DNA from: Felis catus
Lineage: Eukaryota
Assembly: GCF_018350175.1 (NCBI RefSeq)
Contig: NC_058377.1
Coordinates: 61,504,001 to 61,568,000 of the forward strand
Reading direction: 5' to 3'
Length of the DNA stretch: 64,000 nucleotides
In this document: positions 9,571 through 53,321 of the stretch, piece after piece
Layout: each line of letters opens with the position of its first letter
Position numbering within the stretch: position 1 is the first letter of the stretch
Program-made: the position numbers and the translations under genes
Notes under the pieces: generated by a model
The model's database searches: none
The model's input: the letters and a program-made list of their open reading frames with translations, nothing else
Told to the model about the DNA's origin: nothing

Positions 9571-10066
9571 TGCAGGCATCTCAGCCCCTCTGTCAAGTCT
9601 AGTAGCCTTTAAACATTAGCAAATGCTCTTAGCCTGTGTAATTGATTAATCTTTCTTTGTACTTGTATATATCATGCATTCTTCCTTGAAAAAACAGAGC
9701 ACTCTTGCATGTCACAAAGCAGAGACCAGACCCCCCTGTACAACCTCCAGGCACTCGGGAACCAGATCCCCCTTGCACAACCTCTGAGCACTGAGATAAC
9801 TTCTGTAGTTGGCACCATCGAGTCTGCACATAATCAAGAAATGTTACAGACCATGGCACTCCCTTTATTGATTCAGTACCCTAACCCCCCCTCCCCTAAA
9901 AGCATCTGGGTCAGGCAGAAACCTTGTATTTGGCTTTGGGACAAGAGTCTACCTTCTCCCCAGGGATCCAGCTTCCTGAATAAAGCTCATAAACCTTTCC
10001 AATCAACACTCCTCTCTTGAGTATTGGCTTTTCCAGACAGGTAGCCAAACTTGGGTTTTTGCCACA
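9571..10066 (+). mobile_element. Solo ERV LTR (~500 bp)
   Basis: TG...CA termini, AATAAA at ~9979, imperfect 4-bp TSD (aagg/aggg), and absent at the paralogous empty site (~29715). Confidence 0.75.
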
Positions 10067-10636
10067 AGGGTCAATGCATTATTGCTCCCTCACCTGAAAG
10101 CCAACATCAGGAGTGAGGAAAGTCAACTCCTGCACCCCGTGGGTCGAAACTCACCATCATTAAGACCTCTTTCTTCATCTGCAATCACTCCTCCTAGGAA
10201 AAATCCATGGCCTTTTGGAAGCTCTCTCATGAAGTCTTGAGGAATACAACCCTTGAAAATATTCATTCGATATTTATTTATCATATTTTAATCACACAAA
10301 GAAAATACTGGACCCAAATCAGAAAATGATTAAACGAAACAAGAAAGTACTTCAAAGTAAGGATATACAAGTGGAAAAAAGAAGCAAAGGACTGATGCAG
10401 TCTTATAAATGTTAATTATGAAGACAAGCATCTTCCATCAATCAGCCTGTCAAAGCTTAAAAATCTCAGTCATAACCAGTGTTTTCGAAAATTCAGACAT
10501 GAAAGTGCTATTAGTCGTTGTAAATGATGCAATCTCTCTGTAGCATCATTTTGAAGTTTCTAGAAATCATTAAAATTACTCTTTAAATGTATATATATTT
10601 TTCTTTTTCAGTCAGCTTTATGTTCAGGAATGTATT

Positions 10637-10842
10637 TTGGCCAGTGGCTCAGTTGGTTAAGCATTTGATTCTTGATTTTGGCTCAGATCACAATCTCACA
10701 GTTCGTGAGACTGAGCCCCATGTTGAGCTCTGATCTGTCAGCATGGAACCTGCTTGGGATTCTCTCTCTCCCTTTCTCTTGGACCCTCCCCTGCTCGCTC
10801 TCTCTCACTCTCTTTCTCAAAAATAAATACATATTTAAACAA
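10637..10842 (+). mobile_element. Can-SINE
   Basis: gtggctcagttggttaag head, CT tract, aaaataaat. Confidence 0.85.
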
Positions 10843-12811
10843 AGAATGTATCCTATAATTGTCCTGGCCAAGTGTGTGGGAGGATAGAGAGTCCTGGTTA
10901 CCTTATGTCCTTGCAATAACCCATTTGTTTTTTCTCTTCCATTTTTAGGTGTCAGGTTGGAGCTGGTCTTGAAAATTTGGAGGCCATAATAATGGCTAAT
11001 CTGGACTCTAGGCCTGATTTTGTATTGAATAGTGACACTTGAGGATGGTGCAACTAGGTTCCAGTTTCACATTCTATCTTCCTGTCATTTTCATATTCCT
11101 GTATTTTTAGGATAACTGTCAGGACTAGTCATTGTTAGATATATTTCGAACTTCTCCAGATAAGTTTGGAATTCTAGTGGACCACCACAAGCTGCCTGCT
11201 GCCTGTTTTTGTATAGTTCAGTAGCTAAGAACAGTTTTTACAGAATTCTTTCAGGCAGTGTGGTGATAGGGAAATGTAAGGTTCAGCAGAATATTATCCC
11301 CCAGAAAAAATGAATTCCACTCTTCTACTTAGTAGAACTTAGCAAAAGAAAAACTAAGTAATTATGACTATTGCTAATATTAGATTTTGAATGTCATCAA
11401 AATTTTTGTGGAAATATATTTTCTATCTTGCTACCTAAATACCTACTTAATAATCTTCAACTGTCTCTTTGTCCACAAAGCCTGAGCTATGTATTTGTCC
11501 CTTTCCATAAAGGTTGTTGAACCCTGGCTAAAGCACGAGGAAATTACTTCCGATGTTATTTCAGCTTTGTTCCTAAATAAATTATGTTACCTAAGAACAA
11601 CAATCCCTACTGGCAACCTGTTCTAATCATAGGCAATAGATATTGATATTGAAAATATTTTCAAAACATTCCCCAAGATGGCCTTTAGATTTATAAGTAA
11701 CCATCCTCAGCAGTCATCGATATGTGATGAGGCTGATTCCATGAAACAAGCCAGAGTTTTCCTCATTTATGTGACATGCAATCTAGAATATTTTATAGAT
11801 GCATTGATTTTAATGTCATAAATCAAATTATGGGCATTTGCACACCTGTGCATATTTTCCGTGACCATTCATTAAATGATCCATGAGCTGAAATTTTCAG
11901 GAATAGTCTGCTATCCTTAAGTGTTCAAGTCTTTAATCTTAGGTAAAATCTCCATCTCTTCACTAATTTAGTAGCCTTTACTGATTAAAAAGTGTGTTGT
12001 CTTATATTCACTGAGAAGTATGCTGTCACAAGCACACAAAAAAACCATGTGCCCTTTTTACGGAGAAAAATTTATAATAACACATAGCTTTCATAATAAA
12101 GTTCAACATCTTTGCAGAGTGTCTATGGCTATTCCTTTTTTGTTCCTTTCAAGTATAACTGACACAAAATGTGACATTAGTCACGGGTGTACAACCTGGT
12201 GATTTAGCACGTCTATACCTAATGCTATGCTCACAAGTGTATCTACCATCTGTCACCATACGAGCCTATTACTGTACCCCCGACTATACTCCCGATGCTG
12301 GACCTTTTATCTGCCTAACTTGTTCATTCCATAACTGGAAGCTGTATCTCCTGCTCGCCTTTCACCTATTTTTCCCTGTGGGGCCATTCTTGATATTCAC
12401 ATTGCCTTTGTCTCTGCAAATTGTATCTTACATTAAAACAAACAAACCCTGTGCATTTACATGCCCATCGTTTGTACTATAAGTCTCATTTTCATCTACC
12501 TGACGTGGTGTGTCCCTACTTGGTCAATCATTCATGATTCCTTAAGAATCAGATTTCCTAACTAAATACTGAGAAGCACAATTTTCACTCTCCTGCTTAC
12601 TACTTTCTGTTGGACTTAGGTATTTCATTCTCTCTGCTAATGGACAGTGTCCCTGAAAACCACCACAACTTCTCTCTCACTTGCCCTTCTCTTTCTTTCT
12701 CTCTGTTTCTCTTCCAGAAATATAAGGATATGTTAAGCAATGTGTCAAATTCCCAGTCTGTCAATATTGCCTAGTGTAATAATTACAATTTTGTGATTTT
12801 ATTTTACTCTA

Positions 12812-13250
12812 AGATTTGTTTTTTAGTTGTCTATGTGTTTATTTTGAGAGTGAGAGAAAGGGAGAGAGAATCCAAGCAGGCTCTGTGCTGTCAGCACAGA
12901 ACCTGATGCAGGGTTCAAAGTCATGAACTGTGAGATCATGACCTGAGTTGAAATGAAGGGTCAGAAGATTAACCGATTGAGCCACAAAAGAGCCCCTGTA
13001 GTTTGATTTTAAATTGCTGAATCAATAAATAAGCAACAGAGCTGTACTGATGTGGGGGTTCCTCAGTGGCTCAGTTGGTTGAGTCTGACCCTTGTCAGCT
13101 CAGGTTGTGATCGCATGGGTTCTTGGAATCGAACCCTACCTCAGTACTGTCAGTGTGGCACCAACTTAAGATACTCTCTCTCCCTCTCTCTCCATCTCGC
13201 TTTCTCTCTCTAAAAATAAATAAATAACATTTAATTAAATAAGAAAGAAA
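12812..13250. mobile_element. Two head-to-head Can-SINEs (12812-12996 minus, 13053-13250 plus)
   Basis: SINE heads facing away from each other about 55 bp apart. Confidence 0.8.
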
Positions 13251-14122: not shown

Positions 14123-15061
14123 TTATGAAGAGAACATCTTTACCACATGAATGCGGATCTGCTTGGTCTTGGCACCATAGACAAGTGGATTGAGAAATGG
14201 GGGGACCAGCAAGTAGAGGCTAGAAAAGAGGATGTGGATATAAGGGGGAACATGAGCACCAAACCTATGTGTGAAGAAGGAGAAGAAGGCAAGGAGGTAG
14301 AACTGGAGGAAGACACAGATGTGAGCGATGCACGTATTGAATGCTTTCAACCGAGCCTCCTTCTGGGGCAAACGAAAAACTGTGAAAAAGATCTGTGCAT
14401 AAGACAAAGTGATGAATGTGAGGTCGAACCCTGCAACAGTGAATGCCACAAACAAGCCATAGATTTTGTTGACCCGCACATCTGATGCAGCCAGTTTCAC
14501 AATGGCCATATGCTCACAGTAGCAGTGGGAGATGATGGTTGTATGGTAAAACTGAAACCGGAACTTTATCAGTACTAAAGATGGGGCTACAAGAAGGGCA
14601 GCCCTGAGTGTTACCACAGCTGCTATTTGGGTGACTAGGTGGTGGGTGAAGATGGCAGCATGTCTTAGTGGATAACAGATGGCCACATAACGGTCCAGAG
14701 CCATGGCCAACAGGATGCCTGACTCTATGCCTTGAAATGTGTGGATGAGCCCCATTTGAAGCAAACAGGAATCAAAATAAATGTCTGCCACATGAAACCA
14801 GAAGATTCCAAGCATCTTGGGCACAATGCTCGTGCCAAGTACAATATCTGTGACTCCCAGCATGCCTAGAAAAATGTACATGGGCTCATGGAGGCTGCGC
14901 TCTGACCTGATGATGATCAGAAGCAAGAAATTTCCAATGATAGCAATGAGATACATGACACAGAATGGAATCCCAATCCAGCACTGCACTGTCTCTAAGC
15001 CTGGGATCCCTATCAGTGTCAACACAGAAGGCATGAAGACTGTGATGTTGGAAACGGACAT
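14123..15061 (-). CDS. OR52A1: Class I olfactory receptor, OR52A1-like (copy 1), 312 aa
   Basis: Intact ORF MSVSNITVFMPSVLTL...MALDRYVAICYPLRH...PPFLNPLVYGAKTKQIRIHVVKMFSS; matches human OR52A1 as recalled. Confidence 0.93.
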   Translation of the reverse strand: MSVSNITVFMPSVLTLIGIPGLETVQCWIGIPFCVMYLIAIIGNFLLLIIIRSERSLHEPMYIFLGMLGVTDIVLGTSIVPKMLGIFWFHVADIYFDSCLLQMGLIHTFQGIESGILLAMALDRYVAICYPLRHAAIFTHHLVTQIAAVVTLRAALLVAPSLVLIKFRFQFYHTTIISHCYCEHMAIVKLAASDVRVNKIYGLFVAFTVAGFDLTFITLSYAQIFFTVFRLPQKEARLKAFNTCIAHICVFLQFYLLAFFSFFTHRFGAHVPPYIHILFSSLYLLVPPFLNPLVYGAKTKQIRIHVVKMFSS

Positions 15062-20930: not shown

Positions 20931-21247
20931 GAAAAAGAGACATAGCCAGGAGCACATAGCTACGTGCTGGTTTGGCTATTGAAGAATATTGATGTGTGAC
21001 ATGGTCCTTGGATGTTACCAGGAATCAAGATTTGTCTTTCTCACATTTTATTTCTATGTAAGTCTAAGTGTTGCCAGACAGGAATTTCTAGGCTTAAACA
21101 GAACAAAAACAAAAGAAAAATGAAAACAATTTGAAATCTCAGCCCAAGAGAACTTTGTTCTATATGTGAGTGGCAAACCAAAGTTCCCAGGTATTTCATG
21201 AGTTTTTAAATGCCTCCTGCAGTTGTGAGCATCTGAGATTTAGACAT

Positions 21248-21259
21248 TTTTTTAAAGAT

Positions 21260-21294
<35 letters not shown>

Positions 21295-21315
21295 TTTTGA
21301 GAGAGAGAGAGCATG
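21248..21315 (-). repeat. Isolated SINE tail: (TTTA)n plus (GA)n
   Basis: tttttaaagatttatttattt...ttttgagagagagagagcatg with no SINE body. Confidence 0.75.
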
Positions 21316-21364
21316 TTGTTACTTTGAATCAACCTAAAATATCTGTAACAGGAGCCACTAATGA

Positions 21365-22312
21365 TTAAGGTTTTTTAGGAAGAAACATTTTCAGGACATG
21401 GTCACGAATTTGTTTGGTCTTCACACCATAGACAATGGGGTTGAGAAAAGGTGGGACTAACAGGTAAAGGTTTGATAGGAGGATATGAACATATGGTGGT
21501 ATGTGAGAACCAAACCGATGTGTGAAGAAAGAGAAGAAAGCAAGGAGGTAGAACTGGAGGAAGACACAGATGTGGGCAATGCAGGTATTAAAGGCCTTGA
21601 ATCGTGCCTCCTTCTGGGGCAATTGAAACACAGTGAGAAAGATTTGAACATAAGACAAGGTGATGAAGATTATGTCAAAACCTAAGATACTGAAGGCAAC
21701 AAATAGACCATATATCTTGTTGATCCGGACGTCTTCAATAGCTAGCTTCACAACGGCCATGTGCTCACAGTAAGAGTGAGAGATGACCGTAGTTCGGTAG
21801 AGTTTCAGACGACATTTGATGAGCATAATGGATGGTACTGTAAGAATGGCAGCCCGGAGTGTCACCCCAACTCCAATGTGAGTCAAGAGTTGCTGGGAGA
21901 AGATGGTGGTGTGTCTCAAGGGGTCACAGATGGCCACATAGCGATCTAGGGCCATTGCCAGTAGGATGCCTGATTCGATTGCCTGGAACGAATGGATAAG
22001 CCACATTTGTAGCAGGCAAGCTGCAAAGGAAATCTCTGGCAAATGAAACCAGAAGATGCCTAACATTTTGGGAAGAATACAGGTGCTAAGTGCAATGTCT
22101 GTGGCCCCCAGCATGGCCAAAAATATGTACATGGGCTTATGGAGGCTGCGTTCATATCTGATGATACCCAAGATTAGGGAATTCCCAGTCACAGCGATGA
22201 CATACATGACACAGAATGGAATCCCAATCCAGCACTGGACTGACTGTAGTCCAGGAATCCCAATGAGTGTTAGTACAGAGGGTACAAAGACTGAGCCATT
22301 GAGGAGGAGCAT
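21365..22312 (-). CDS. OR52A5: Class I olfactory receptor, OR52A5-like (copy 2), 315 aa
   Basis: Intact ORF, identical to copy 1 except M10V, IG>TV, Q>R and the C-terminal tail. Confidence 0.93.
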   Translation of the reverse strand: MLLLNGSVFVPSVLTLIGIPGLQSVQCWIGIPFCVMYVIAVTGNSLILGIIRYERSLHKPMYIFLAMLGATDIALSTCILPKMLGIFWFHLPEISFAACLLQMWLIHSFQAIESGILLAMALDRYVAICDPLRHTTIFSQQLLTHIGVGVTLRAAILTVPSIMLIKCRLKLYRTTVISHSYCEHMAVVKLAIEDVRINKIYGLFVAFSILGFDIIFITLSYVQIFLTVFQLPQKEARFKAFNTCIAHICVFLQFYLLAFFSFFTHRFGSHIPPYVHILLSNLYLLVPPFLNPIVYGVKTKQIRDHVLKMFLPKKP

Positions 22313-22469
22313 GATGATTTGGTCAGCAGAATCAAGTAGTGGTTTTGCTCTTTTATCTTCTATACCCTGTCAAGACGACATGAATTAAAAATGAGAAGAA
22401 ATTATGTTTTTTTTTTAGCAAAGTATATTTAGTTAGATAAAACATACACGATCTTCTCTTTCCTTTAGT

Positions 22470-23132
22470 ATTGAAATACTGTTACATCAAACATTTTCTA
22501 AGCTTACTTGCATACCATGCTGATTTGATACATTCACATATTGCAATATGAGTGCCATTGTAGTGTTAGCTAATACTCTAAAATGCCACATAATTATGTT
22601 TTCTTTTCTGTGATGGGAATAATTGAAGATCTGGTCTTTTAACAAGTTTGATGTTTTCATATAATATTTTTGTTTATACTTACTATACTGTATATTAGAT
22701 TGCTAGGAAGACTTATTTATCTACTAAAAACTATGTCCTCTATTTCCTCAGCCTCAGCCCCTAGTACCCACAATTATATCTGTTTTTATCAAGTTTATCT
22801 GTTTTTATGAGTTTGGCTTTTTGTCCTTGTTGCAGGGGAGTTGATACACAATATTACTTTAGTTTCAGAAATGCAACATAGTAATTCAACAAGTCTGTAC
22901 ACTATGCTGTGCTCACTACTAGTATAGCTATGGCATGTCACTGTACATGTTATTACAAACCATTGACTATATTCCCCATGCTGTACTTTTTATCCACATA
23001 GCTTATTCATCCCATCATTGCAAGCCTCTGTCTCCCATTCTTCTTCACCAATTCGGCCACCCTGCAATCCCTGCCCCTCTGGCAACCACCAGTTTATTCT
23101 GTATTTTTGGATCTGTTTCTATTTTTATTTGT

Positions 23133-23163
<31 letters not shown>

Positions 23164-23726
23164 AGATTCCATATATGTTAAACCATATGGAGTTGGCTTT
23201 TTTTTTAAGATTCCACTTACATATAAGTGATAACATGCAGTATTTTTCTTTTTCTCTTTAACTAATCTCACCACAATGTACTCAAAGGCCATTATTACTG
23301 TTGCAAATGAAAGAATTTCCTTCTTTCTCATGGCTAAATAAACAATCAGAAACATGTAAATCAAAGCCACAATGAGATATCACTTCACTCCTGTTAGAAG
23401 ACTTGAAATCAATAAGTCAAGAGATAATAAGGATTGGGGGATTTGGCGGAAAGGGTAACACTGCCCATTGATGGGGGGAATGTACACACTATGGAAAGAA
23501 ATATGAAGGTTCAACAAAAAATTTGAAAAAATGATCTACATATAATCCAGCAATTCGACTTCTGGGCATATATTCAAAGGAGAGGAAAACAGAATATTGA
23601 AGAGATACCTGTAATCCCATGTTTATTGCAGCTTTATGCATAACAGCCAAAATAGGGAAACAACCTTAGTCCTCATTTACATATGAATGGATAAAAATGT
23701 GGGATATAAGTGCAATGGACTATTAC
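22470..23726. mobile_element. Old L1 3' fragment with 5' inversion (copy 2), with a nested L1 3' piece at ~22840-23190
   Basis: Paralogous to 3815-4655; inversion junction at ~23341. Confidence 0.7.
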
Positions 23727-23885
23727 CCCCATCTTATTGTTTCTTTTCAACTACTCCTTTCAAGTTTTCTCTTTTCATAAAGTCATTGTAAGAACAACCA
23801 TCAAGTTCTATGTTTCCACATGCCTTAATCATTTAGAGTGAGAAAAATTAAATGAATCAGATGGCTGCTCTCTGGTTCCTCAGTA

Positions 23886-24104
23886 TTTTATTTTATTTTT
23901 TAAGTTTATTTATTTATTTTAAGAGAAACCGAGACAGTGAGAGTGGGGGAGGGGCAGAAAACGAGGGAGACAGAGAATTCCAAGCAGGCTTCCTGTTGCC
24001 GACACAGAGCCTTACATGGGGCTTGAACTCATGAAACTGTGAGATCATAACCTGAGCTGAAACCAAGAGTCAGACGTTGGACTGACTGAGTCACTCAGGC
24101 ATCC
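23886..24104 (-). mobile_element. Can-SINE
   Basis: Reverse SINE; TSD approximately ttcct.agta. Confidence 0.85.
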
Positions 24105-25317
24105 CTATTCCTAAGTACTGAGAATAATGTAGACCATCTATATACTTAGACAATTTCTAATCATGTAGGATTGCCTAGAACACACCTCAGGTCAATTACA
24201 GGAGTATTTATTGCCTCATTTTCTCCAAATTTATTCAACTCCAAGAGAGTCTTTCCTTTTAGGTATCCTTTGTTCACAAATTCTTCCTTTCAACAAACAT
24301 ACAGTATGCCAAACTAGATCTTTCTCATCTTCACAAATAACATTATGACCCACAAATCAGAAGTTTGTATTCTAATAATTTTCTTCAGTAAATACTCAAT
24401 GCTTGAGTATTTACTATGTTCCAAGGATTTCTTGAAACAATTGGAGAATAAAATATATCTATTCAATTTTTTGAAGCATCTAAATTATGCTAAGTCTTGA
24501 AATTCAAAGTTGCTATTCACCATTTGTTAAATAAGTACTACAGCATTCATCCTCATGAAATCTTTAGACATTTTAGGATATTTTATCTTCCTTAAATTTT
24601 ATACCCACATTATTAACCAATATCATATTAATGAAAAACTAAGACTTATTGTTACAGGTAAATCTGCTTGGATCCAAATTCCATGACATACAAACCTAGG
24701 AAGAACAAAAAATAATTTGTGTCTTCTGAGATTTTATAATTAAACCTCAGTAAGGATTTGGGATATACAACAGTGTGAAACTACGTGAGGCTGGGTGGTA
24801 CAAATATATAAAACAAATTTTAATCAGTAGTGCTTGTTTAGAATCTTATGGAAAAAACTCTAATATTCCTTTTTCATTTTTACCAAAAAAGTACTATACA
24901 CACATTACATACACGTTACCATCTGGTGCACGTCTGATACAAAACCACATATCCATGCCATGTCATCCGTATACTGGATAACGCTCTCTGTGACTTGACT
25001 CAAAAGTGTGTGCTACTGCCTTTATCTGGAATTTTCATTGGGGAGATTTAAATGGCCACGTGGGTCAGAGTTGCCCTAGAGAATCTGTAAAAGATGCTGT
25101 GCAAACTGAAGCTCATCAGAAATATATATTGTGAATAACCAGAGGAAAGAGAGTAAAAAAGAGAGGAAAGAGAAATGTAAACAAAGTCGTGGGTAAATAA
25201 AATAGGAGACCATGCCTAAGGTCTCAAACACCACACATCTTATAAAGAAAGTAGTTACCTTCCTTCCTGATAGTTTTACATTTCCAACTTCACGAGGCCA
25301 ACTGGATATTCTTCTAA

Positions 25318-25545
25318 ACCAGGATTTTTCCTTCTCAGCACAACTGGCACTGTGGTGAGATAAATTTTGGGTTCTTCAGTAATTCTCTATATTGCAGGAG
25401 GGAGGTTCAGCAGCATCCCTGACTCCTGACCATTAGATTCCAGTTGTTCTCTTTTGTCATGACAATCAAAACCATCTCCTGCATTGCCAAATACCATCTG
25501 CATGTGCGGGGTGGGACACACCACACATGGTTGCTAACCATTGTT
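25318..25545. mobile_element. MER20-like hAT DNA transposon remnant (paralogue at 4730-4890, truncated)
   Basis: 'cagcagcatccctg...gtcatgacaatcaaaac...gcattgccaaat...ggttgctaaccattg'. Confidence 0.6.
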
Positions 25546-27295
25546 CTAGAATTTTACCCTGGAAAAAACAGAGCCTTCAATTAAATAAGAATTAATGTTT
25601 TATAGCTTTAATAAAAACCGGGCAGAAAAAGTCTGGCTATCAAGGGAAATCATTCTTCTGTAGGTATTAGCCAGATAGAGGAGATGGAAGAGGATTCCAA
25701 GAGGATTCCAAGAGGATTCCAAGGATTCCAAGATGGAAGAGGATTCCAAGAGGAAATACTTTGGACAAAATCAAAGCAGCATGAAACGTACAGTGGGGTT
25801 GCAGTTCAATAAGCAATTTTCACATATGAATGATTTCATAAGCAGAGATGGTGGTTGTTGAGGCTAAGGAAAGGGGAAGAATAACCAATGTAAAGTTACA
25901 GGTTTAAACGAAATAATTTAAGCCTTAGGTAGAATAACAGATCTTTTGCCTTTAAAACTCTGCTCTGCCGGCAGATGGATGAATGTCTTAAAAGGATGAG
26001 AGCTGGCATAGGGAGACGAAGTTAGAAGGACACGTGTGATAGTCCGGATGGGACATGATGAAGTGGCCTGGCCACATCGGAAGAGTCACAAGGGAACAAT
26101 ATCTGTGCTGCTCGCTGACTTGATGGAGGCGAACGGTGGGAGGACAGGCTAAGATGGTCTTGGGTTGAGAGTAAAAGCACGGGGTGACAAGGACAAGCTG
26201 GAAACAGCCGTGTGTGCACACATATGTGCAAGTTTAGAAGATGGAGGAGACATATCATAAGTCCTTGAAATTCATGGGCCAGGAAAACAATCACGGGTCT
26301 CATTTACAGCATGAATCGTCAACCATTAATGTTACTGACAACTCCAATTCTGACTCGGGCTGACTCGCGGAACCTAAAAGAATCAAAGGATTTAGGTCTA
26401 AACCACACACCCTACAGTCTCAGGAAAGCTTTCCCCCCTGCAAAGTCACTGACATCCACCCTTTGTTCTCTGCCTCAAGCCCCCAGGGATAGACTCTCTT
26501 TGTTTCGGAGATAGCTTGTCCATCGCAAGACAGCTGCAAATGTCAGATTTGGCTTCTTTCTAGTGATTCCCAGACTGCTTCCCTCTTCATTTCTCATAAA
26601 AGTCCTCAACCCACCTTCTAAAGATACACATCAGCCGTGGAACACGGTGGTTATGGCATGGATCTAAAGTCAGCCACACAGTTTAAATCCTTAGGACGCT
26701 GTTTAGCTTTGCATGTTCTTCAGGCAGTTGTAAAACTTATAATTGTCTCAATTCTTTCTTGCTGAAAGTTAACAGATAGAAACACACTGCAGGGTGACTG
26801 TGAGGATTTAACTAGGTAATGTATTAACATACTTAGAAAGAAATATAAAATGTATTATTTTGTCTAAATGCAGTGACTCATTCATAGAGGTGTTTCTCCT
26901 TCTCATGAATAACTTCCGATGTTTAAAGATCATTTCACCAGATGAGGTTTTCCCTGAATGACTTGAGGGCACCGTTTCTACCGAAGGTTTTCCAGTCTAA
27001 ACCTATATAATTCTCTGACCTTTTAACCAATAAGGTTTTTACACACTGAGCAGCCCAGATCCCTCTCTAGGGTCCTGTCAGGCTCACTTTAAAAATTATT
27101 ACCCATTGTGTGATAAACTGATTGGGAAATATTCTGAACAGCATGAGACAAAATCTTCATGTTTAAACTGCCAACTAGTGTAAGAGTCTATTGTTTGTTA
27201 ATCACCATAGCATCTTATTGGATCTTAGCATTACGTGTTCTCTTTGAAACCAATGCTCCATTTTCCCACACTTAAGCTAAGACATAAGCCCAGAG

Positions 27296-27568
27296 ACTTA
27301 CCAGGAATCATCTGTGATATCATATGTAGAAGCCACAGAGTGAAAATCTTTTGGTGTTTCAGATCATGAGGATGGCTCTTTTGTACTATAGAAGCCACCT
27401 GGGGGATTCTTTTTCACCAATGGCTGGTGAGCTTAAATTAACCTGGGACAAATGTGAAAAGGAGGGGCAATATGGTTCAAAACCTGGAAGAACTTGTCTA
27501 ATAGCAGATCTGCATCTAATAAAAACTCACAAATTTTGGTGTCCTTGGGGACTGGAAGCCAAAATGAC
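27296..27568 (-). promoter_or_regulatory. Putative OR52A5 copy 2 promoter and non-coding exon 1
   Basis: Same donor (27302/27301) and motifs as 6831-7100. Confidence 0.5.
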
Positions 27569-28649
27569 TGTCTCTTTAGAAACTTCTAAGAGAACACAGT
27601 GCCCCAAGGTAACACAATCAATGACACTTATTTACCAAACAATGAGCCAGAGAAGGGGAATAAGAACATCTCAAGATATTCAGACTAATTAGTATAGAAT
27701 TGCTAACAGAGAAATAAATGGACTATTTGTATATGGTATAGAAATTGTCCCATATGTTTAGAATTCTCATGAAATAATAATATGCTTTTTCAAGTTTTAG
27801 TGCCAGTCACCTTATATATATCAACTTTCCCTATTAAATATTATTTATGACCAGTGTTGACTTAGTTACTTTAAAAAATGGGTGTTATGATTTAAAATGG
27901 ATTTTAAGCTTTGGTATCAAAGAGGGAAAAGAAAAAGATCCAAATCTTTGTATGTACAAGAAAAAGTTTAACAAGGCTCCATTACATATATCTGCCTGAG
28001 AGAAATGATGACCTTATAGAGTTACATGATTTTTCTCCTGAGTCATTGAGTCTGGCCCTATTTAGGAAACCATTTACATTGAAAAACTCTCTGAGTCTCC
28101 ACTTGTCATTAAACTGCCATGGAATTCTATTCATCCTAGAAAAAAAAAAAACAATAATATAGGATTGGCTGCATTTTGTGCTTGATGAGCTCACACTGGC
28201 TTTGGAGTGCTGGCTGTGTGCATCTCTTTCCAGCTCTGACTGATAACGTTACATGACAGATTGAAATCAACAGAGCAGAAATCGGTAGACCAGAAGACAA
28301 ACAATATATATCAGAATTCCAGTCACCCAACAGAGTAGAATCTGATGAACTCGAAGTAAAATATTTTCAGGTAAAACAAAAAGAATACTTTTCAGATAGA
28401 GTATGAAGTAGGCTGAGGTGAGGTCAGCAGAGTCTGAAATTTGTACACGACTCTTTGTATACAGAATAATAATATTATAAACATACATAATGACTCACAA
28501 GAGTGATACTTTGGGGAAATGTAAAAAGTATTTGAACCTCACAGAATCATAGTACTATTTAATGTTAGAGACAAAATTATTCTCGGATACTGTTTAGTTA
28601 AAACCCATTAGAGCTCAAGGGGAATAAGATGTTTTAGCATGAGACTTCT

Positions 28650-28860
28650 GGAGCACCTGGGTAGCTCAGTTGGTTAAGCAGCTGACCTCGGGTCAGGTCA
28701 TGATCTTGCAGTTCATGAATTTGAGTCCCATGTCAGGCTCTGTGCTGACAGCTCAGAGCCTGGAGCCTGCTTCAGATTCTGTGTCTCCCTCTCTTTCTGC
28801 CCCTCCCCTGCTCGCAATCTGTGTCTCTCAAAAATAAATAAACGTTAAAAAAATTTAAAA
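28650..28860 (+). mobile_element. Can-SINE (feliform)
   Basis: gacagctcagagcctggagcctgc motif. Confidence 0.9.
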
Positions 28861-30735
28861 ACCATGTGACTCCTTAAAATTCCTAATATTAAATAGAAAT
28901 AATTACCTTTGAGTAATGTAATGGGAACTACAGAGTTCAAACTTTCATAAGTGGTTCTTCATTCCGCATGTATTTTTAAGAAAACCAGAAACAAAGGTTT
29001 AATTTTCCCATACAACAGTGTTAGAGATGGAGTTGAATATTTGTCTCTTACTGCAATGGTTGATAAAATTCATCAAGTGAGAAGATATAAATTTAAATGA
29101 ATTATGGGAAATACAAATTAGGAGGACTTGGACGTGCCTATACTTTTTGTGGTAATCTCTGAATTAAAATGGGGGTCCTTACCACACACAGAGGAGAAGG
29201 ATCATGGTTAAACTTATGTGGCTGGAGTCCTGGCTGCCACGTGCAAGAATAGACTCACATACATCCATGCAATGCCATTCCATCCACCAGAAAAGAGGAA
29301 GTTCTAATGTGCTACAACAGGTGTAAACTTGAAAACTTGACACTATGTGAAAGAAGCCGGATGTAAAAGGCCATGTGCTATATGACCTAGTTTCTTGAAA
29401 TATCCACACTAGTAAAATCCATGCGGACAGAAAGTAGTAGTGTGGTTTCCATAAACTGGGGATAGGGTGAGAGGCAGTGCCTGTTAATAGGAATGGGGTA
29501 TCTTTTGGGGGTCATGAAAATGTTCTAGAATTAGAGAAGAGACTGTCGCACACCTTTTTTAATATGCCAAAAACCAGTGGCTTGTACGCTTTAGAGGGTG
29601 AATTTTATAGCAGCCCATGGAGTTTTCTACCAAGATAACAAGAGTGGAGAGGGGCCAAATGTTGCATGTTATTCTGTACAAACTGAACGTTTAAATAAGG
29701 GTTTGAAAAATCCAAAGGGTCAATGCATTATTGCTCCCTCAACTGAACACCAGCACCAAGAGTGACAAGTGTCAACTCCCGCACCTGATATGTCAAAACT
29801 CACCATTATGAAGACCTCTTTCTTTTTCTGAAATCACTCCTGAGGAATAAAGCCCTTGAGAATATTAATTGATTATATAGCTGTTAGATTTCAAGCATAC
29901 AAAGAAAAAAATGAACACAAATCAGAAAATAATCAAAGGACAATATAAAGTACTTCAAAGAAAGGATATACAAGTGGAAAACAGCAGCAGAGTTATTGTA
30001 CTCTTTGTTAATGCTACTTGTAAAGACAATCATATTTCACCAATCAGACTGCCAAAGATTAAAAATCTCAATCATAACCAGTGCTTTTGAGAACGCAGAC
30101 ATATAGAGTGCTATTAGTCACTTTTGTATTTGATGCACTCTTTTCGAAGGATCATTTTGAGTTTCTAGAAATCAGTAACAATACCCTTTACAAAATATGC
30201 CTTTTTCTTTTCCAGGCAATTTTATGTTCAAGAATGTGTTCTATAATTTTCCTGGCCAAGTGTGTAGGAGGATAGAGAGTCTTGCTCATCTTCTTGTGTT
30301 TGCAATGAGCCATTTGTTTTTTTCTTTTCCATTTTTAGGTCTCAGGTTGGAGCTGGTCTTGATGATTGAAGGCTAAAATAGTGGAAACATCCACATCCTA
30401 GACCAGATATTGTATGACACATTGACAACTGAGGATGATGCAAACAGTTTCCGGTTTCATGTCCTGTCTCATGTCTGTTTTAGACTCCCACTATTTTTAG
30501 TATAACTGTCAGGACTGGTCATTGTTACATGTATTTCAAAATTCTCCAGATAAGCTTGAAATTATAGTGGACCATCCTAAAAAGGCTTGCTGCCTGCTTT
30601 TGGAAAACTCACTAGCCAAGAATTGTTTGTACAGATGAACTCTTTCAATCAATGTGGTGATAAGGAAAATCTAAATTGAGGCCCACTTAAACCAAATGTC
30701 ACCACCCCCAAAACAATTAAATCCCTCTACTTTAC

Positions 30736-40515: not shown

Positions 40516-41243
40516 GAAAAGAAGGGTGATGATGCTTTGGAGTGACTTATGATCAAACTACTAACCGGCCTGAAAATATCACTTAAGGTTAGAGACCACC
40601 TGTAATGTCTATGTGGATCAAGACAACCACACCAAGTGGTGATAAAATTGTGCCTCCACTGATGAATGTTCACTGTGTCTTTGGAGCACTTTTTTGTAGA
40701 TATTCCTTGCAAGTTAAACTTTTCTGAACAAATGTGAGTATTATTTTTTCCTGGTAAGAAATGATAATATTTGATGAATGACTCTACTATCAGAACTTAC
40801 AACATTATAGTTAAATTGGGAAACCTTGGCTTAATTACTATTCTCGACACTCAGAAATCTTTCAAGACTTGGCATATCCTGTAAGTCTAAGGTTTCATTT
40901 GCCTCAGTTTTAACTTCCTTAAATAAATAGATTCCTTCCCTCTCCCTGCCTGAAGTTTTCTACGTGTAAATGATCTGTGTCTGTCTGTTTAACCTAAAAT
41001 GGTGTATTCCCTCTTCATGGAGAACCACGTCTGAATCCTGCCCTGGATCTGTTGGGTCTTCACAGAGAGAAAGGTTGAGGAATCAGTGTCATAAGCAGGG
41101 AAAGCAGGCATAGAGAATTTGAGGTATTTTCTCTAGGAGTCAGCACTTACGTTCATTCGGTAGATAACTTTCACATAGCCTGTTATCTCATACAGGACCA
41201 ATCTGAGCAAAAGTGGTATATGTATATAATACAGAATTCTTTC

Positions 41244-47151: not shown

Positions 47152-48093
47152 ATGTCTGTTCAACCTGATTCCAAAATCAGTAACTCCACCTTTCTCCTTA
47201 CGGGTTTCCCTGGCCTGGAACGGGAATATCCTTGGCTCTCCATTCCTTTCTCCTGTATCTATGCTATGGTACTCTTAGGGAATTGCCTGGTGTTGCATGT
47301 GATCCGGACCGAGCCCAGCCTACATGAGCCCATGTTCTACTTCCTGGCCATGTTGGCCCTCACTGACCTGTGCATGGGGCTGTCCACAGTGCACACGGTG
47401 CTCGGGATCCTGTGGGGCTTGAGCAGGGAAGTCAGCCTGGATGCCTGCATTGCCCAAACTTACTTCATCCATGGTCTGTCCCTCACAGAGTCTGGAGTCC
47501 TTCTTGCCATGGCCTTTGATCGCTTTACTGCCATCTGCAATCCTCTGAGATATACATCCATCCTCACCAATATGAGAATCATCACCATTGGTGTGGCCAT
47601 TTTAGGGAGGAGTTTCCTGTTCATTACCGCTCCCATTGTCCGCCTAAAGTTCTTCGATTACTGCCATCCTCATATCCTCTCCCATTCCTTCTGCCTGCAC
47701 CAAGACTTACTTCGGCTCGCCTGCTCCGACATCCGCTTCAACAGCTTCTATGCGTTAGCCCTGGTGATCTGCACACTCTTTTTGGATTCGGTGCTCATTC
47801 TCATCTCCTACATCGCGATCCTGCATTCAGTCTTGACTATTGCATCCCGGGACGAGCGGCTCAAGTCCTTGAAGACCTGTGTCTCCCACATCTGTGCTGT
47901 TCTGGTTTTCTATATCCCAATTATTGGTTTGACTATGGTGCACCGCTTTGGAAAGCACCTCTCTCCTGTGGTCCATGTCCTCATGGGCAATATCTATATC
48001 CTTTTCCCACCCTTGATGAACCCTATCATCTACAGTGTCAAAACCCAACAAATACGTAGCAGGATCCAGAGATGGTTCGCTAAACAAAACTGA
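47152..48093 (+). CDS. OR51V1: Class I olfactory receptor, OR51V1-like, 313 aa
   Basis: Intact ORF with YPWLSIPFS, LHEPMFYFL, MAFDRFTAICNPLRY, SHSFCLHQDLLRLACSDIRFNS and PPLMNPIIYSVKTQQIR; matches human OR51V1 as recalled. Confidence 0.92.
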   Translation: MSVQPDSKISNSTFLLTGFPGLEREYPWLSIPFSCIYAMVLLGNCLVLHVIRTEPSLHEPMFYFLAMLALTDLCMGLSTVHTVLGILWGLSREVSLDACIAQTYFIHGLSLTESGVLLAMAFDRFTAICNPLRYTSILTNMRIITIGVAILGRSFLFITAPIVRLKFFDYCHPHILSHSFCLHQDLLRLACSDIRFNSFYALALVICTLFLDSVLILISYIAILHSVLTIASRDERLKSLKTCVSHICAVLVFYIPIIGLTMVHRFGKHLSPVVHVLMGNIYILFPPLMNPIIYSVKTQQIRSRIQRWFAKQN

Positions 48094-48508
48094 GTACTAG
48101 AAGTTAGTGTGTTCTAAGGAAGGGAAGGTCGTACTTGCAAGAGGAACGACTGATAAGGATTTGTAGCAGAAATAATAAATGTATATGTAATGTTTAACAG
48201 ATTAAAGGCATATTTATAGTCATTTCTTAATTTAGTTTTCCAGAGCCGGAGAAATAAGCAGAGAAAGTGTTACTGATCTCATTTCCTAATTTTAAAATTA
48301 AGTATAAGGTTAACTACACCGACTTGTGTTCCCCAGTGTATCAGTGAGCACTTGCCTGGGTAGTTACTAAGCTTACGGTACCATCCATGCTTTTTGAATT
48401 CTAGTTCAGCATGTGATTTTATTTTTCATAGAACTGGTATATCGGTACGTTTACTTGTATAGGACAAGTAGCCTTTACATATTATTCCCATGTGTCACAA
48501 GTTGAGTT

Positions 48509-49057
48509 TGTTGAGAAGGAAAATTTTACTCTACCCTTCAAGGTTCTTCTAAATTAGTCTAATTTAGAATCTGTCTACATTGGCATGAGACAGATTAACA
48601 GGAGAAAAAAACAAAATTTAATTAATGCACACAGAGGTCCATAGTAAAATTAAGACCAAAGGAAATGACCAAGACATGAAGTTTTTATACATTTTAGACA
48701 AAGAAACATCCATCTGTGAGGAATTGACGGGACAAAGAAAACTTATGCTCAGGAGCTTCCATTAGTAAAGAATTCTAAATGTGGACTAGAATTTGGGCTG
48801 GGGTAATAAATCTGTAAAAATATCAAGATTTATTTACATAGGCTACTTTGGCCCTGAATTCCCTATCTCTGATGATAAGGATGTCTCCTTACCTCTTGGT
48901 GCAGAGAAGGTACCTTTCACATGGGAGATGTGCTTCCTGCTTTCTGGAGACAAAGAGTCAGTAGTCTTGCACTGGCTGTTTCTTAAATAAGTTTAATTCA
49001 GCATAATCTTTATGGTATTGTGGCATACTTTGGGGCAGCTCTCCCTAGGTCCCTACA
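48509..49057 (-). mobile_element. Solo ERV1-class LTR (MER34/MER39-like)
   Basis: TG...CA termini, imperfect TSD agtt/aggt, and the motif 'agacagattaacaggagaaaaa'; subfamily assignment from memory. Confidence 0.65.
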
Positions 49058-49430
49058 AGGTCATTCACACCTCTTCTACATATGTTTAAGCAAAAGTGCC
49101 TAGAAAGCCTGTTCCGTCTCACCTAATAGAATGCAGGATTGGTAGAATAGATTACACAGTTTAATGTAAAAGATTTGGTGAACAGTGACTGAATCAGCTA
49201 TCATATCTCTACATAGCCTATGATGTACCCCCAATTCTATATAGTTTACAATACTCATGAGAATTGCCAATTGACTTTAATCTTGGTGTCAGTGTACATT
49301 AAATTTTAAAGACAGATCAACCTCTTTATCTTTAAGGTAGGATGCGAAGGCACATATATATTAAGTAAAACATCAGTACCTAAACTGGGGATAGAATTAT
49401 GGTTTTGAGAATCTTTTGAATGTATATCTC

Positions 49431-49552
49431 ATTTTTTTAATAATGTTTGTATTTATTTTTGAGACAGAGCGAGACAGAGTATTGAGTGTGGGAAGGGTAG
49501 AGGAGAGGGAGACACAGAATCTGAAGCAGGCTCCAGGCTCCAAGCTGTCAGC
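49431..49552 (-). mobile_element. 3' half of a Can-SINE
   Basis: Starts mid-body at gctgacagcttggagcctggagcc; the tRNA head is missing. Confidence 0.85.
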
Positions 49553-50084
49553 TTGGACATAATGTCTTTGGGCTTCCAGAAGCAAATGAAAGAACCTTCT
49601 CAGTCAGTGGTACTCTTCTCCTCTACTCTTGTTTTTATAAAGTTATCATAGTGGGTCTCTGATTTTGTCAGAACTCTAAGATCATATCATCCTTCTTATT
49701 TATATTATGGAAGGAAAATGATCCACAGATACACATTATTGTTTTCAGAAAGGACATCCAGGAGTAGTGTAGCAATATAAGAAGTTATGTAGAAGGCAAG
49801 TCATTTGCATTACAAACAGCCAGATCACGTGGGTAACAGAGTAACTGCTGATCTCTCTGTTATGTCCCTCTGCACCTGGAGATACAATAAATATACATGT
49901 TAAACTTGCTTGGAAATGGCATTTCAAGCAGAGTTTGATGAATTTCCATATTCCACATTCCAACTACCTGATAATATTCTGTTATTTTCCATTGTGTCTA
50001 GGTCTGGAACTGACACTTTGGATCAACAAATCTGACTCTGACAAGTACATTAGTAGATAAATCTCCATAAATTTTGTATTTTTA

Positions 50085-50260
50085 AGGTGTTTTTCTTTAA
50101 GAGAGGGAGACAGAGATCACAGGAGGGACAAAGAGAAGGGAGAAAGAGAATCCGCACCATCAGCATACAACCTGACATGAGGCTTGAACTCACCAACCCC
50201 AAGATCTTGACCTGACCTGAAATCAAGAATGGCATGCTCAACTGAGTCACCCAGGAGCCT
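50085..50260 (-). mobile_element. Can-SINE
   Basis: Reverse head ctgagtcacccaggagcctc. Confidence 0.8.
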
Positions 50261-50439
50261 CTTTTTCTGTTTATTTCTCATTTTATTTATTTACTTTTTT
50301 TAGTAAAAAAAACTCCCTATGAAAGAGAACAGAGAAACTGGTGACACCCAGGAGCACAATATATTCATCTATCTATATCACTTGTATCTACATAAGACTG
50401 GATGTCTCTCTTTTCTTTTTTTTTTTCCAATAACAATTT

Positions 50440-50692
50440 TACTTTTTTAATTTAAAATCTATGCTTGTTAACATGTAGTGTAATAAGGGTTTCAGGAGTA
50501 GAATTTAGTGATTCTTCGCTTAAAAATAGTACCCAGTACTCATCCCAACAAGTGCCCTCCTTAATGCCCATCACCCATTTAACCCATCCCCCACCCACCA
50601 CCCTTCCAGTAAACCTCAGAGTGTTCTTTACACCCAGGAGGCTCTTATGGTTTGTCCTCTTCCGTTTTTATCTTATTTTTTCTTCCCTTCCC
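50440..50692 (-). mobile_element. Carnivore L1 3'UTR fragment
   Basis: 'acccagtactcatcccaacaagtgccctccttaatgcccatcaccc', the same motif as in the younger L1 tails. Confidence 0.65.
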
Positions 50693-53321
50693 CAGAAGTC
50701 CTTTCAAAAGAAAGTAATGGAAGCGCTTTGAATAGATCATCCAACCCCATGCACTTTTGGTGAGTCTGGGTGAAAATTTCATGCCATTTTTACATGCCTC
50801 AAAAAACTCTATTTTATTTTGCCCACATACTAACAATTGAATTCCTGAAAATTAGTGGTGCGCTTAAAATCGCTGACATTTTAGAATACCCATTTCTGAA
50901 TACCTAGATGGGAGGAATCTCTAGAAAACATGGAAACTCAGAGGCGACAATGTATAGAGGCAAGAGGACTCAAACTTGCTGACAGCAAAGTGTGGGAAAA
51001 TGGGTCCACGGGTAATTCATGGACTAGAGGCTAGGTTCTTGGGCTTAAACTGCTCACAGCTGCCAGTAACATGAGATTTGGCCAATGTAAGCTCATTAAT
51101 TCTTAATGAACTATATATCACTTGAACATTTGAATTTTTCATGAGCTCAGGCATAAGAAATGATGCGAAAATAAAGGGGTGAAAGGACACGTTTCCCAGC
51201 AGGAGTCCAATATGGAAGTAGGAATGCAAGACAGGGAGCAGACTTGGGATACCAGAAATGATGGAGGAGAGGGCTCAACTAACGAACATTTAATCACCTC
51301 GATTCACTGAGACTGACTTTTCTGAAAACTGGGCTCTTAGTCTAGTTTGGATACATTTGTATCTGAAAAGACCATTGCTTTTTAAAAATCACATATCTTA
51401 AATTAGAAAGCCTCAAGCTACATTAGAAAGTTTCTATTTGGTGAAAACAGGGTTCAGTTGTTTCATTCTTTCCTAGTTGGTCCAACATTGCTGCTTTCTG
51501 TCAGCAAGCCCATGATCATTTAATCATATACTTATTGTCACCAAAAATGCCAGTAATGCAGGAAGAGCTGTGGTGTATGTGGCTAAACCTCAAGTGAAGG
51601 AACCCACTCAACAGGTCCATTCTAGAAGCAAGTCTGTATCAGCTGATGCATATTTAGAATAGACCAGTTAGTCAACTAAGACATGATTTCCAAAACTTTG
51701 CTCCCCAATGCTTAATCCTAGAGATTCCTCGATCATGGATTCATTTATTCACTTCTTCTTTCTAGAGTTAATCAGAATTAGAAGAGAAACCCTTCAGTAC
51801 CATTCACATTGAATGGCATATTTAACAGTAAGGAGCTGATGTGGCAGCATTACCTGACAGGTACAGGTGGTGGGAAGGCAGGTGGGAGAGGACCTAAGTG
51901 AGTACAGGGCAGGGGGGATGGTGTGGTTATCACTGGAAAAGCTGGTAGTGAAACATTATTGGGTGAACTTCGGCAAAGACACTTCATGCTTTGTTGTTGG
52001 GGGCCAGTTGTGTTTTTACAAGACTCCTGAAAACCGTGGTCTGTCTTCGTAACACCATCACTCATCACTCATCACTCACCTGTCATTCACTCTTTTTCCT
52101 CCTGAGACTCTCATCTCATTCACTTGTGCTTATGCTGGCAGCGGCTCTTTCTTCTCTCTGCACCCTCTAGAACAGCCTGCTGTAAATATCATGAACTCTT
52201 ATCCATTTGCTGCTCGGCCATCTGCCAAACTGTGCACATCTCGGGAATAGACTTTCCTCTCTTCTTCTGTCCCTGAAAAACAGACTTACACCCTCTTTTG
52301 TAAATGTGTCTGAGCTCCTGTTGGTGGAATCACACTCCAACAAAACTCACAGGAAGGTCTATAATTTTCTAGACACAGCATAACTTTATTAAGCTTGAAA
52401 TGGCAAGTATAAAGTTCCCCAGTGTACATGGAGAAGGAGGAGGTCTGAATATGAGATTTCGTAGCCACTAACCCAAGCCCCCAGGGACCCAACAGCTCAT
52501 AATGAAGCCCTCTTTTGTCCATCCACATCTAATGTCTCTGAAGCCATTTCTGCAACTTGCAGAATCCCTTTGGTCTCTTCATTTCTTTTTCCCCACTGGG
52601 GAGATGTAGAGAAATTAATATATACAATCTGTATTTTTTGACATTCCTTACAAAATAAAAAGTTTTCGGTAAAAATTAAGTAATTAAATTTACTTTTGTC
52701 AGTTTCTTTCTGCTGTCCTCATTGGGAAAAAGATCGAAAGGACACTTAAGTGTACTTAAATGTATGTTCCTGTGCCAATGAGTTACGTATAAATAAGTAT
52801 TCTGTGACCTTTCTTTCACTGAGACACTTCTGGAGACAAAATCTGTATCCACAATGGCTCTCTATCACACATTTAACACTCATTCTTTTGTAGTATCATT
52901 CTTTAGATCTTTATTTTATTGAAGCTTTGTAAAGTGAGTAGTATTCTCACAGTGACCAGTTATGATGGACATTTCCACATTCCCCTGATTAGTAGAATTT
53001 CATTACAGAAACCTACACATCTGATTGTTATTATTATTATTGTCAATTGTAAATGATACATAATTATATATAATTATATGAAAAATTTTTTTGGAAATAT
53101 CCCTTGTCGCTTTTTATGTAAATACTTACAAAATAGTCTTTGTTTCCTTGCCCCCCGATATCCCAAACTATTTATTTGCATAAATGTTTGCTGAACTCTC
53201 ACTAGAACATTAAAATTGCCTCCGATGTTTTTTTACTTTTATTTCAAAGAAATTGTTATTAAAGCACCACTACCCCTATTGGTAATCCAAGCAAATCCTA
53301 TCTGGTAAATACTGACATTTA

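What the first reader, a model, noticed from the sequence alone, without database searches (positions are those of the whole stretch)
49453..52620. 'Empty' OR gene: OR52A1 upstream region and ATG fused to a SINE tail, giving a 35-codon ORF with a poly-A signal
Seen: this unit matches the ~3 kb upstream of both intact OR52A1 genes as far as ATGTCC (ATG at 49560-49558), then jumps into a SINE 3' half. From the OR start codon it reads MSKLTAWSLEPASDSVSPSPLPFPHSILCLALSQK*, and the stop overlaps the SINE AATAAA. The putative exon-1 donor (51854) and O/E-like sites (~52480, ~52590) are retained. Known: in mice, OR alleles with the CDS deleted can still be chosen and transcribed, and the neuron then switches to another OR. 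Inference: this could be a natural CDS-null decoy locus making a short spliced, polyadenylated transcript. An ORF-based annotation would miss it.
Basis: partly seen in the sequence, partly recalled or inferred. Interest (0 to 1): 0.75.

Follow-up and report, generated by a model that had tools for sequence, protein, structure and literature searches.

The report
Gutted cat smell-receptor gene
In a cat smell-receptor cluster one gene keeps its upstream DNA and start codon but has no coding sequence left, being joined to half of a jumping element; it is likely a decaying pseudogene made by a deletion rather than a working decoy, and whether it is still transcribed is untested.

Summary
49555-52975 (- strand) is a third, old copy (25-28% diverged in the intron) of the upstream unit of the two intact OR52A1-like genes. 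It ends at ATGTCC and joins a Can-SINE 3' half; no receptor coding sequence or 3' flank follows. The junction is a perfect 9-bp fold-back (8 of 6000 random joins reach this), which fits snap-back end-joining repair of a deletion. The decoy reading is not supported. The 35-codon frame and AATAAA are default SINE properties: 8 of 8 other copies carry the signal and give 12-86 codons in that frame. Changes private to this copy are as dense in promoter and exons as in the intron (96/904 vs 96/924), whereas both intact copies show about 37% fewer, as expected after long loss of constraint. The two named O/E-like sites are not conserved across copies. Reads across the junction, other felids and nasal RNA could not be examined. 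Verdict: a real, annotation-invisible, deletion-type OR pseudogene; leaky transcription possible, a selected decoy role unlikely.

The parts
52380..52975 (-). Promoter-like upstream region homologous to that of both intact OR52A1-like genes; start site not mapped
   Evidence: three-copy alignment; homology to 59379-60522 reaches 52975
51854..52379 (-). Putative 5' non-coding exon region, 5' end unknown, ending at a donor CAG|GTAATG that is identical in the three copies
   Evidence: (69-70% of columns identical in all three, against 57-61% in the intron)
49876..51853 (-). Putative intron, with two insertions private to this copy: an L1-like 3' fragment (about 50407-50700) and a worn SINE (about 50060-50310)
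   Evidence: repeat names are recalled resemblances plus matches to other copies in the window
49561..49875 (-). Leader between the conserved upstream acceptor (ctccag|G, first base 49875) and the ATG; holds a second candidate branch point (49609-49603) and acceptor (first base 49572); 7 upstream ATGs (12 and 9 in the intact copies)
49555..49560 (-). ATGTCC: all that surely remains of the receptor coding sequence (the next A may also be receptor-derived)
   Evidence: 109 of 139 fetched homologues starting MS.S have a third residue (I, T, N, M) whose codon begins with A
49539..49557 (-). Perfect inverted repeat across the junction, TCCAAGCTG-A-CAGCTTGGA (9-bp arms, 1-nt centre)
   Evidence: chance control 8 of 6000
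49432..49552 (-). 3' half of a feliform Can-SINE (tRNA-related 5' part and its 5' target-site copy missing), sense to the gene
49453..49560 (-). 35-codon chimeric frame, 2-3 receptor codons plus SINE
   Evidence: control on 8 other SINE copies
49436..49457 (-). SINE-tail poly-A-type hexamers AATAAA (49457-49452) and ATTAAA (49441-49436); use untested
14123..15061 (-). Intact OR52A1-like paralogue (comparison copy A)
55875..56813 (-). Intact OR52A1-like paralogue (comparison copy B); its 3' flank runs straight into the empty unit's upstream region
47152..48093 (+). Intact OR51V1-like gene, convergent, stop 1.34 kb from the SINE tail

Best explanation
This is the upstream half of a third, old OR52A1-like gene that ends two codons after its start and is joined to the 3' half of a Can-SINE, likely because one deletion removed the coding sequence, its 3' flank and the SINE's 5' half, and it is likely a dead pseudogene decaying without constraint. 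Steps. Shown: three homologous upstream units, 25-29% diverged in the intron; nothing of the coding sequence or 3' flank behind this one; a half SINE; a 9-bp fold-back across the joint; no excess conservation of promoter and exons on this copy's branch. Inferred: a tandem duplication made the third gene long ago; a feliform SINE later inserted downstream of it; a double-strand break was resected into the SINE, the SINE end folded on its own GCTG/CAGC repeat, copied TTGGA, and annealed to TCC(A) just behind the ATG (snap-back synthesis-dependent end joining), deleting at least the 0.93-kb coding sequence and probably over 3.5 kb. Whether the gene was already dead before the deletion cannot be told. 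Predicted: if the promoter still fires in class I olfactory neurons, it would give a short RNA that ends in the SINE tail, no receptor and no feedback, and the neuron would switch, as with any OR pseudogene; that would be a by-product, not a kept function.
For: Anatomy. No remnant: tblastn with the window's 5 receptors and with the 163 proteins fetched by then finds nothing at 48094-55874; local alignment of 48094-49430 to coding sequence plus 3' flank of either intact gene scores 38 and 42, within 30 shuffles (max 50, 55), while the two intact flanks score 223 against each other. Old copy: intron differences A-E 25.1%, E-B 28.4%, A-B 29.2% over 924 columns. Fold-back: arm of 9 or more in 8 of 6000 random OR-to-SINE joins; the other 8 SINE copies mostly read TCTGT left of the core, so TCCAA is not SINE sequence; SD-MMEJ snap-back makes the insert part of a longer inverted repeat (passages of PMC5728401). 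Decay: private changes in promoter/exon/leader vs intron are 96/904 vs 96/924 for the empty copy (p 0.88), 64/904 vs 104/924 (p 0.002) and 82/904 vs 134/924 (p 0.0004) for the intact ones; the empty copy's share differs at p 0.0007-0.0094 in 12 of 12 alignment and filter settings; block bootstrap ratio 1.00 (0.75-1.30) vs 0.58 (0.46-0.73), 5 of 2000 resamples reversed; K2P branches 0.143/0.148 vs 0.089/0.162 and 0.114/0.213. ORF and signal are generic. Both flanks are real DNA in many animals: 14 whole-genome-sized runs (10 marked DNA?, 4 unlabelled) of two organisms in 6 studies hold 0.81-0.86 of 434 words of 48600-52700.
Against: The junction itself is seen in one assembly only; one search does not isolate the few words that span it. 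No intact orthologous locus was read, so the pre-deletion state is inferred. The decay test has three sequences and no outgroup; the two intact coding sequences differ at only 12 of 135 four-fold sites against 29% in the intron, which points to gene conversion between them, and conversion reaching their promoters would mimic the result. In 6 of 12 settings copy A's ratio was 0.75-0.86, near the empty copy's 0.89-0.93. The leader alone, last 60 nt dropped, is not significant (p 0.18). Regions were drawn after I had seen the alignment, and the fold-back statistic was chosen after seeing the junction. Donor, both acceptors and the ATG context are intact.
Confidence: 0.7

Rival explanations
1. The locus is a kept decoy: selection maintains its promoter so that class I neurons choose it, make a sterile RNA and switch, tuning the odds of neighbouring receptors.
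For: Donor, acceptors, ATG and two poly-A hexamers are in place. Induced sterile OR RNA shuts down other ORs in mice (passages of PMC10765522). Sense Can-SINEs at dog 3' ends carry AATAAA (abstract of 10.1101/2020.11.30.405357).
Against: No constraint on this copy's promoter and exons; named O/E-like sites not conserved; ORF and signal generic. In PMC10765522 the sterile RNAs held the full transcript or the coding sequence, which is the part missing here. About 60% of human OR pseudogenes are transcribed anyway (PMC4982115), so transcription alone would not show a function.
Confidence: 0.04
2. The SINE was never full length: a 5'-truncated SINE inserted and the coding sequence was lost in the same event (retrotransposition-mediated target deletion).
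For: Half SINE, no target-site copy at the 5' joint, 1-2 extra bases at the joint; such deletions are known for Alu and L1 (recalled).
Against: The fold-back mirrors TTGG, the minority state (6 of 8 other copies have CA, 2 of 8 TG at these two places); if both states come from decay of one CpG (inferred), the copy had aged before the joint formed. Weak, since TG could be a source-element variant.
Confidence: 0.1
3. An inversion or other rearrangement, not a deletion, cut the gene behind its ATG; the headless coding sequence lies elsewhere, joined to the SINE's 5' half.
Against: No headless OR52A sequence in 64 kb; three OR52A genes to the left and one to the right all share the empty unit's strand, so an inversion reaching beyond the window's left end would need them to have faced the other way before.
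Confidence: 0.08
4. Misassembly: the contig jumped from the gene into a SINE.
For: Joint lies in a high-copy repeat; not checked in reads.
Against: A jump would need shared sequence on both sides, and the receptor start shares none with the SINE beyond the fold-back; no gap nearby; the sequence is part of a 115-Mb record; the branch-wide loss of constraint fits an old loss; both flanks are in 14 runs.
Confidence: 0.05

Closest known systems
Olfactory receptor pseudogenes of mammals (class I, OR52 family)
   Same: Dead tandem paralogue in an OR cluster with upstream exons and promoter left behind; such loci are often still transcribed at lower level (61.2% of human OR pseudogenes, 0.09 vs 0.35 FPKM; passages of PMC4982115) and are switched away from (PMC5318403).
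   Different: Usual ones keep a recognisable broken coding sequence (PMC4982115 describes point mutations and indels); this keeps two codons, so coding-sequence searches cannot count it.
[quoted passage not shown]
   Same: Native upstream unit with no receptor product; second choice would stay within class I (passage of PMC6685970).
   Different: Natural and germline; old, with a decaying promoter; 3' flank gone and replaced by a SINE tail; choice and switching not shown.
Snap-back synthesis-dependent microhomology-mediated end joining (SD-MMEJ; PMC5728401 passages)
   Same: Short primer repeat (GCTG/CAGC), 1-2 inserted bases and a 3-4-base match to the other end form one longer inverted repeat.
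   Different: Germline fossil in a cat rather than an induced break in flies; the hairpin is very tight (3-bp stem, 3-nt loop at best); the pre-break sequence is inferred.
Can-SINE-donated poly-A signals in dog 3' UTRs (abstract of 10.1101/2020.11.30.405357)
   Same: Sense SINE tail brings AATAAA to a transcript end.
   Different: Here the SINE reached the gene by loss of the DNA between; use of the signal is untested.

Membership tests
OR pseudogene (deletion type) | Homology to a functional OR gene of the cluster | tested here: met
   3.4 kb upstream unit at 69-78% to both intact OR52A1-like genes, up to ATGTCC; these are 7tm_4 receptors named 52A1-like in relatives
OR pseudogene (deletion type) | Cannot encode a receptor | tested here: met
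   no receptor sequence behind codon 2-3
OR pseudogene (deletion type) | Loss of purifying selection | tested here: met
   private changes 96/904 vs 96/924, against 64 and 82 vs 104 and 134 in the intact copies; caveat gene conversion
OR pseudogene (deletion type) | Intact orthologue at the same place in a relative | tested here: inconclusive
   a clade of 5 intact proteins, 5 of 5 from Pantherinae, is a candidate, but no DNA context links it, and only 15 of 133 members of the largest cluster were listed
Natural delta-OR / decoy allele | Native promoter, donor and acceptor present | tested here: met
Natural delta-OR / decoy allele | O/E sites conserved with the intact paralogues | tested here: not met
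   neither named site fits the recalled core in more than one of three copies
Natural delta-OR / decoy allele | Transcribed and spliced in olfactory neurons | not tested
   no reads were laid; none of the 10 RNA-type runs listed is described as nasal
Natural delta-OR / decoy allele | Chosen and then switched from | not testable with these tools
   needs single-cell or lineage data
Natural delta-OR / decoy allele | Promoter kept by selection (decoy only) | tested here: not met
Snap-back SD-MMEJ junction | Inserted bases and both ends form one longer inverted repeat near the joint | tested here: met
   9-bp arms; 8 of 6000 random joins
Snap-back SD-MMEJ junction | Pre-break sequences show primer repeat and microhomology | tested here: inconclusive
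   primer repeat is native to the SINE; the receptor side is inferred from paralogues
SINE retrotransposition-mediated deletion | No target-site duplication and an ancestral site without the SINE | not testable with these tools
   5' side is gone; no relative's DNA could be read
Feliform Can-SINE | 3' half matches other copies; subfamily motifs of the tRNA part | tested here: inconclusive
   matches at 73-87%, 3 differences in 32 from the local majority, others 1-6; the diagnostic tRNA part (PMC4084570 passages) is missing, so no subfamily or date

The most novel reading that the evidence does not exclude
The locus is still chosen by class I olfactory neurons of cats and makes a short spliced RNA ending in the SINE tail: a natural germline delta-OR allele, one of a class of 'ghost' OR promoters that coding-sequence counts miss. 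It would give a natural test of whether an OR RNA without any coding sequence can compete in receptor choice. (That it is also kept by selection as a decoy: about 0.04.)
Probability: 0.25. Interest if true: 0.55.

Novelty: new variant of a known kind. Interest (0 to 1): 0.25.

Why it matters
OR repertoires are counted from coding sequences, so loci like this are invisible, and gene losses and the number of promoters that compete in receptor choice may be undercounted. If still transcribed it is a natural copy of the delta-OR mouse experiment and separates promoter and 5' exon from coding RNA. As the evidence stands it is one more way for an OR gene to die, with a neat repair scar, and of modest interest.

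Tried and rejected
Own-genome search: no genome held, so no chromosome-wide look for a headless coding sequence. Reads over the junction and RNA: no result obtained, question open. Metagenome scan for a 22-mer upstream of the joint: 1 hit, L001, 51% GC, sharing only those 22 bases with the window; a chance match. Six runs recorded or guessed as RNA hold 0.07-0.65 of the words; five are gut or mammal metatranscriptomes, none was laid, and they are no evidence of expression. Protein tree of 82 of the fetched proteins (carnivores plus a few outgroups; quick tree only, 39 of 79 inner forks open): cannot name the lost gene's orthologue, and conversion blurs orthology. Partial duplication of an upstream region into a SINE: rejected, since the copy is 25-28% diverged, and no SINE 5' half lies at its upstream edge. 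Functional 35-aa peptide: rejected, as frame length is mid-range for SINE copies (12, 19, 22, 30, 31, 36, 56, 86 codons vs 32 from the same core) and no exact match is in the collection. Earlier findings of the scan: three look-ups, nothing on this locus. Literature: listings showed no title or abstract start on a natural OR locus without coding sequence; the library lacks most subscription papers, so this is weak.
Full report
Setting. The window holds five intact olfactory receptor genes. Exact look-up puts four of them on a 115,366,950-base record that also carries proteins labelled Felis catus, and names their relatives OR52A1-like, OR52A5-like and OR51V1-like. It is the class I OR cluster of a cat (class assignment of OR51/52: recalled). 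I call the intact OR52A1-like genes A (14123-15061) and B (55875-56813) and the empty unit E.

Observation. E matches the upstream region of A and of B over about 3.4 kb at 69-78%. All three read GACATTATGTCC. A and B go on into coding sequence; E has AA and then the 3' half of a Can-SINE, which aligns with other copies of the window from the core GCTGACAGC on. The 35-codon frame and the stop inside AATAAA are as described. Nothing of a receptor follows: tblastn with the window's five receptors and with the 163 proteins fetched by then finds no remnant between 48094 and 55874, and 48094-49430 aligns to the coding sequence and 3' flank of A or B no better than 30 shuffles, while those flanks align well to each other (scores 38 and 42 vs 223). 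The flanks of A and B are homologous for about 2.8 kb behind the stop, so the loss is at least 0.93 kb and, if E shared that flank, over 3.5 kb (inference).

Is it real? The joint was seen in this assembly only; no reads were laid on it. Indirect support: no gap in 48000-54000; 14 genome-sized runs of two organisms from 6 studies hold 0.81-0.86 of 434 sampled words of 48600-52700, one of which may be the source; E is 25-28% away from A and B in the intron, so it is no assembly echo of either. I put misassembly at 0.05.

How the joint formed. Bases 49557-49539 are a perfect inverted repeat, TCCAAGCTG-A-CAGCTTGGA. The inner GCTG/CAGC is native to the SINE, but the five bases to its left are TCTGT in the majority of the 8 other copies, not TCCAA. 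TCC is receptor sequence, and the next A may be too, since 109 of 139 fetched homologues that start MS.S have a third codon starting with A (these are related sequences, not independent). In 6000 random receptor-to-SINE joins with 0-2 random bases, 8 had an arm of 9 or more across the joint (statistic chosen after seeing the joint). This is the pattern of snap-back synthesis-dependent end joining, where the insert becomes part of a longer inverted repeat (passages of PMC5728401): the resected SINE end folds back, copies TTGGA and anneals to TCC(A). A plain 3-4-base microhomology with one later change, or later correction of a near-palindrome, would look alike. The mirrored TTGG is the minority state among copies (2 of 8 TG, 6 of 8 CA); if both derive from one CpG, the SINE had aged before the joint formed, which favours deletion after insertion, weakly. 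The SINE's diagnostic tRNA part is gone, so it cannot be typed; feliform subfamilies date from about 50 and 35 million years on (passages of PMC4084570), an upper bound only.

ORF and poly-A signal. Read from the same core, 8 of 8 other SINE copies have AATAAA or ATTAAA 89-117 bases on (E: 95) and stop after 12-86 codons in E's frame (E: 32). Any sense SINE half would have supplied both. The peptide has no exact match among 15 billion proteins. Sense Can-SINEs do carry AATAAA at dog transcript ends (abstract), so use of the signal is possible, not shown.

Is the promoter kept? With three copies, changes private to each can be counted. In promoter, first exon and leader (last 60 bases dropped) against intron, E has 96/904 vs 96/924 (p 0.88), A 64/904 vs 104/924 (p 0.002), B 82/904 vs 134/924 (p 0.0004). 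E's share of private changes is higher in the functional part in 12 of 12 alignment and filter settings (p 0.0007-0.0094), and a block bootstrap gives a ratio of 1.00 (0.75-1.30) for E and 0.58 (0.46-0.73) for the intact pair. K2P branches agree. Promoter plus exon alone gives p 0.009; the leader alone p 0.18. Against this reading: no outgroup; regions drawn after viewing the alignment; in 6 of 12 settings A's ratio (0.75-0.86) is near E's (0.89-0.93); and A and B differ at only 12 of 135 four-fold coding sites against 29% in the intron, which suggests conversion between them and could bias the test if it reached the promoters. Taken at face value, E has been unconstrained for a large part of its branch, so the loss, or an earlier death of the gene, is probably old (inference). 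The intact donor and ATG context need no selection: at about 10% private change a 9-12-base motif survives whole 3-4 times in 10 (arithmetic).

Relatives. Felids carry several OR52A1-like proteins. One cluster has 5 of 5 members from Pantherinae and forms a clade at SH-aLRT 97 in a quick tree of 82 proteins. It could be E's intact orthologue, but nothing links it to E's upstream DNA, only 15 of 133 members of the largest cluster were listed, and an intact pantherine orthologue would sit poorly with the long loss of constraint. Left open.

What is known. About 61% of human OR pseudogenes are transcribed in the nose, at a lower level (passages of PMC4982115). A neuron that picks a pseudogene repeats the choice (passages of PMC5318403), within the same class (passage of PMC6685970). 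Induced sterile OR RNA silences other ORs but is not kept without protein feedback; those RNAs contained the coding sequence (passages of PMC10765522). Class I genes depend on the J enhancer (passages of PMC12547500). So E, if it fires, works like a delta-OR allele, but by membership it is a pseudogene: it meets the tests for that and fails the two decoy tests I could run (conserved O/E sites, kept promoter). Seven paper searches (listings only) showed no report of a natural OR locus with the whole coding sequence gone; the library is partial. No supplements were read.

Verdict. Observation confirmed; interpretation partly supported. Best reading, 0.70: an old OR52A1-like paralogue gutted by a deletion repaired by snap-back end joining into a SINE, now decaying. 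Novelty: a new variant of a known kind. Interest 0.25. The boldest reading left standing, that it is still chosen and transcribed as a natural delta-OR allele, has probability about 0.25 and would deserve 0.55.

Noticed in passing
window 41022-41121 (-): Worn 3' end of an OR51V-like gene (reads ...SVKTQQIQGRIQTWFS...), head to head with the intact OR51V1-like gene; tblastn 12 of 16 residues, E 0.009; local score 53 vs at most 45 in 100 shuffles. A second nearly vanished receptor gene in the same cluster.
   Followed up: partly
window 14123-15061 and 55875-56813: The two intact OR52A1-like coding sequences are 94.7% identical, 12 of 135 four-fold sites differ, while their introns differ at 29%; their last 30 or so bases before the ATG are identical. 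Suggests gene conversion centred on the coding sequence.
   Followed up: partly
window 15070 and 56822 regions (-): In both intact genes the acceptor-like AG just before the ATG is preceded by G (GAG), an unusual acceptor, behind a conserved CACTGAC and pyrimidine tract; the alternative conserved CAG acceptor leaves a 313-324-base leader with 9-12 upstream ATGs.
   Followed up: no
window 2351-11274 vs 20983-30668: Tandem duplication of an OR52A5-like unit; proteins 98% identical, flanks only 72-86%, again suggesting conversion of coding sequence.
   Followed up: no
window about 48510-49060 (-): Stretch that begins TGT and ends ACA between the SINE tail and OR51V1-like; recalled resemblance to a solo LTR, not tested. 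It could offer a further AATAAA to a read-through RNA.
   Followed up: no
window 12571-12849 (+): Faint tblastn match to OR proteins (27% over 101 residues, E 0.004); perhaps another old remnant, perhaps chance.
   Followed up: no
proteins P0047, P0164-P0167: Cluster of intact OR52A1-like proteins seen only in lion, tiger, leopard, jaguar and clouded leopard (5 of 5 members); possible loss in small cats.
   Followed up: partly
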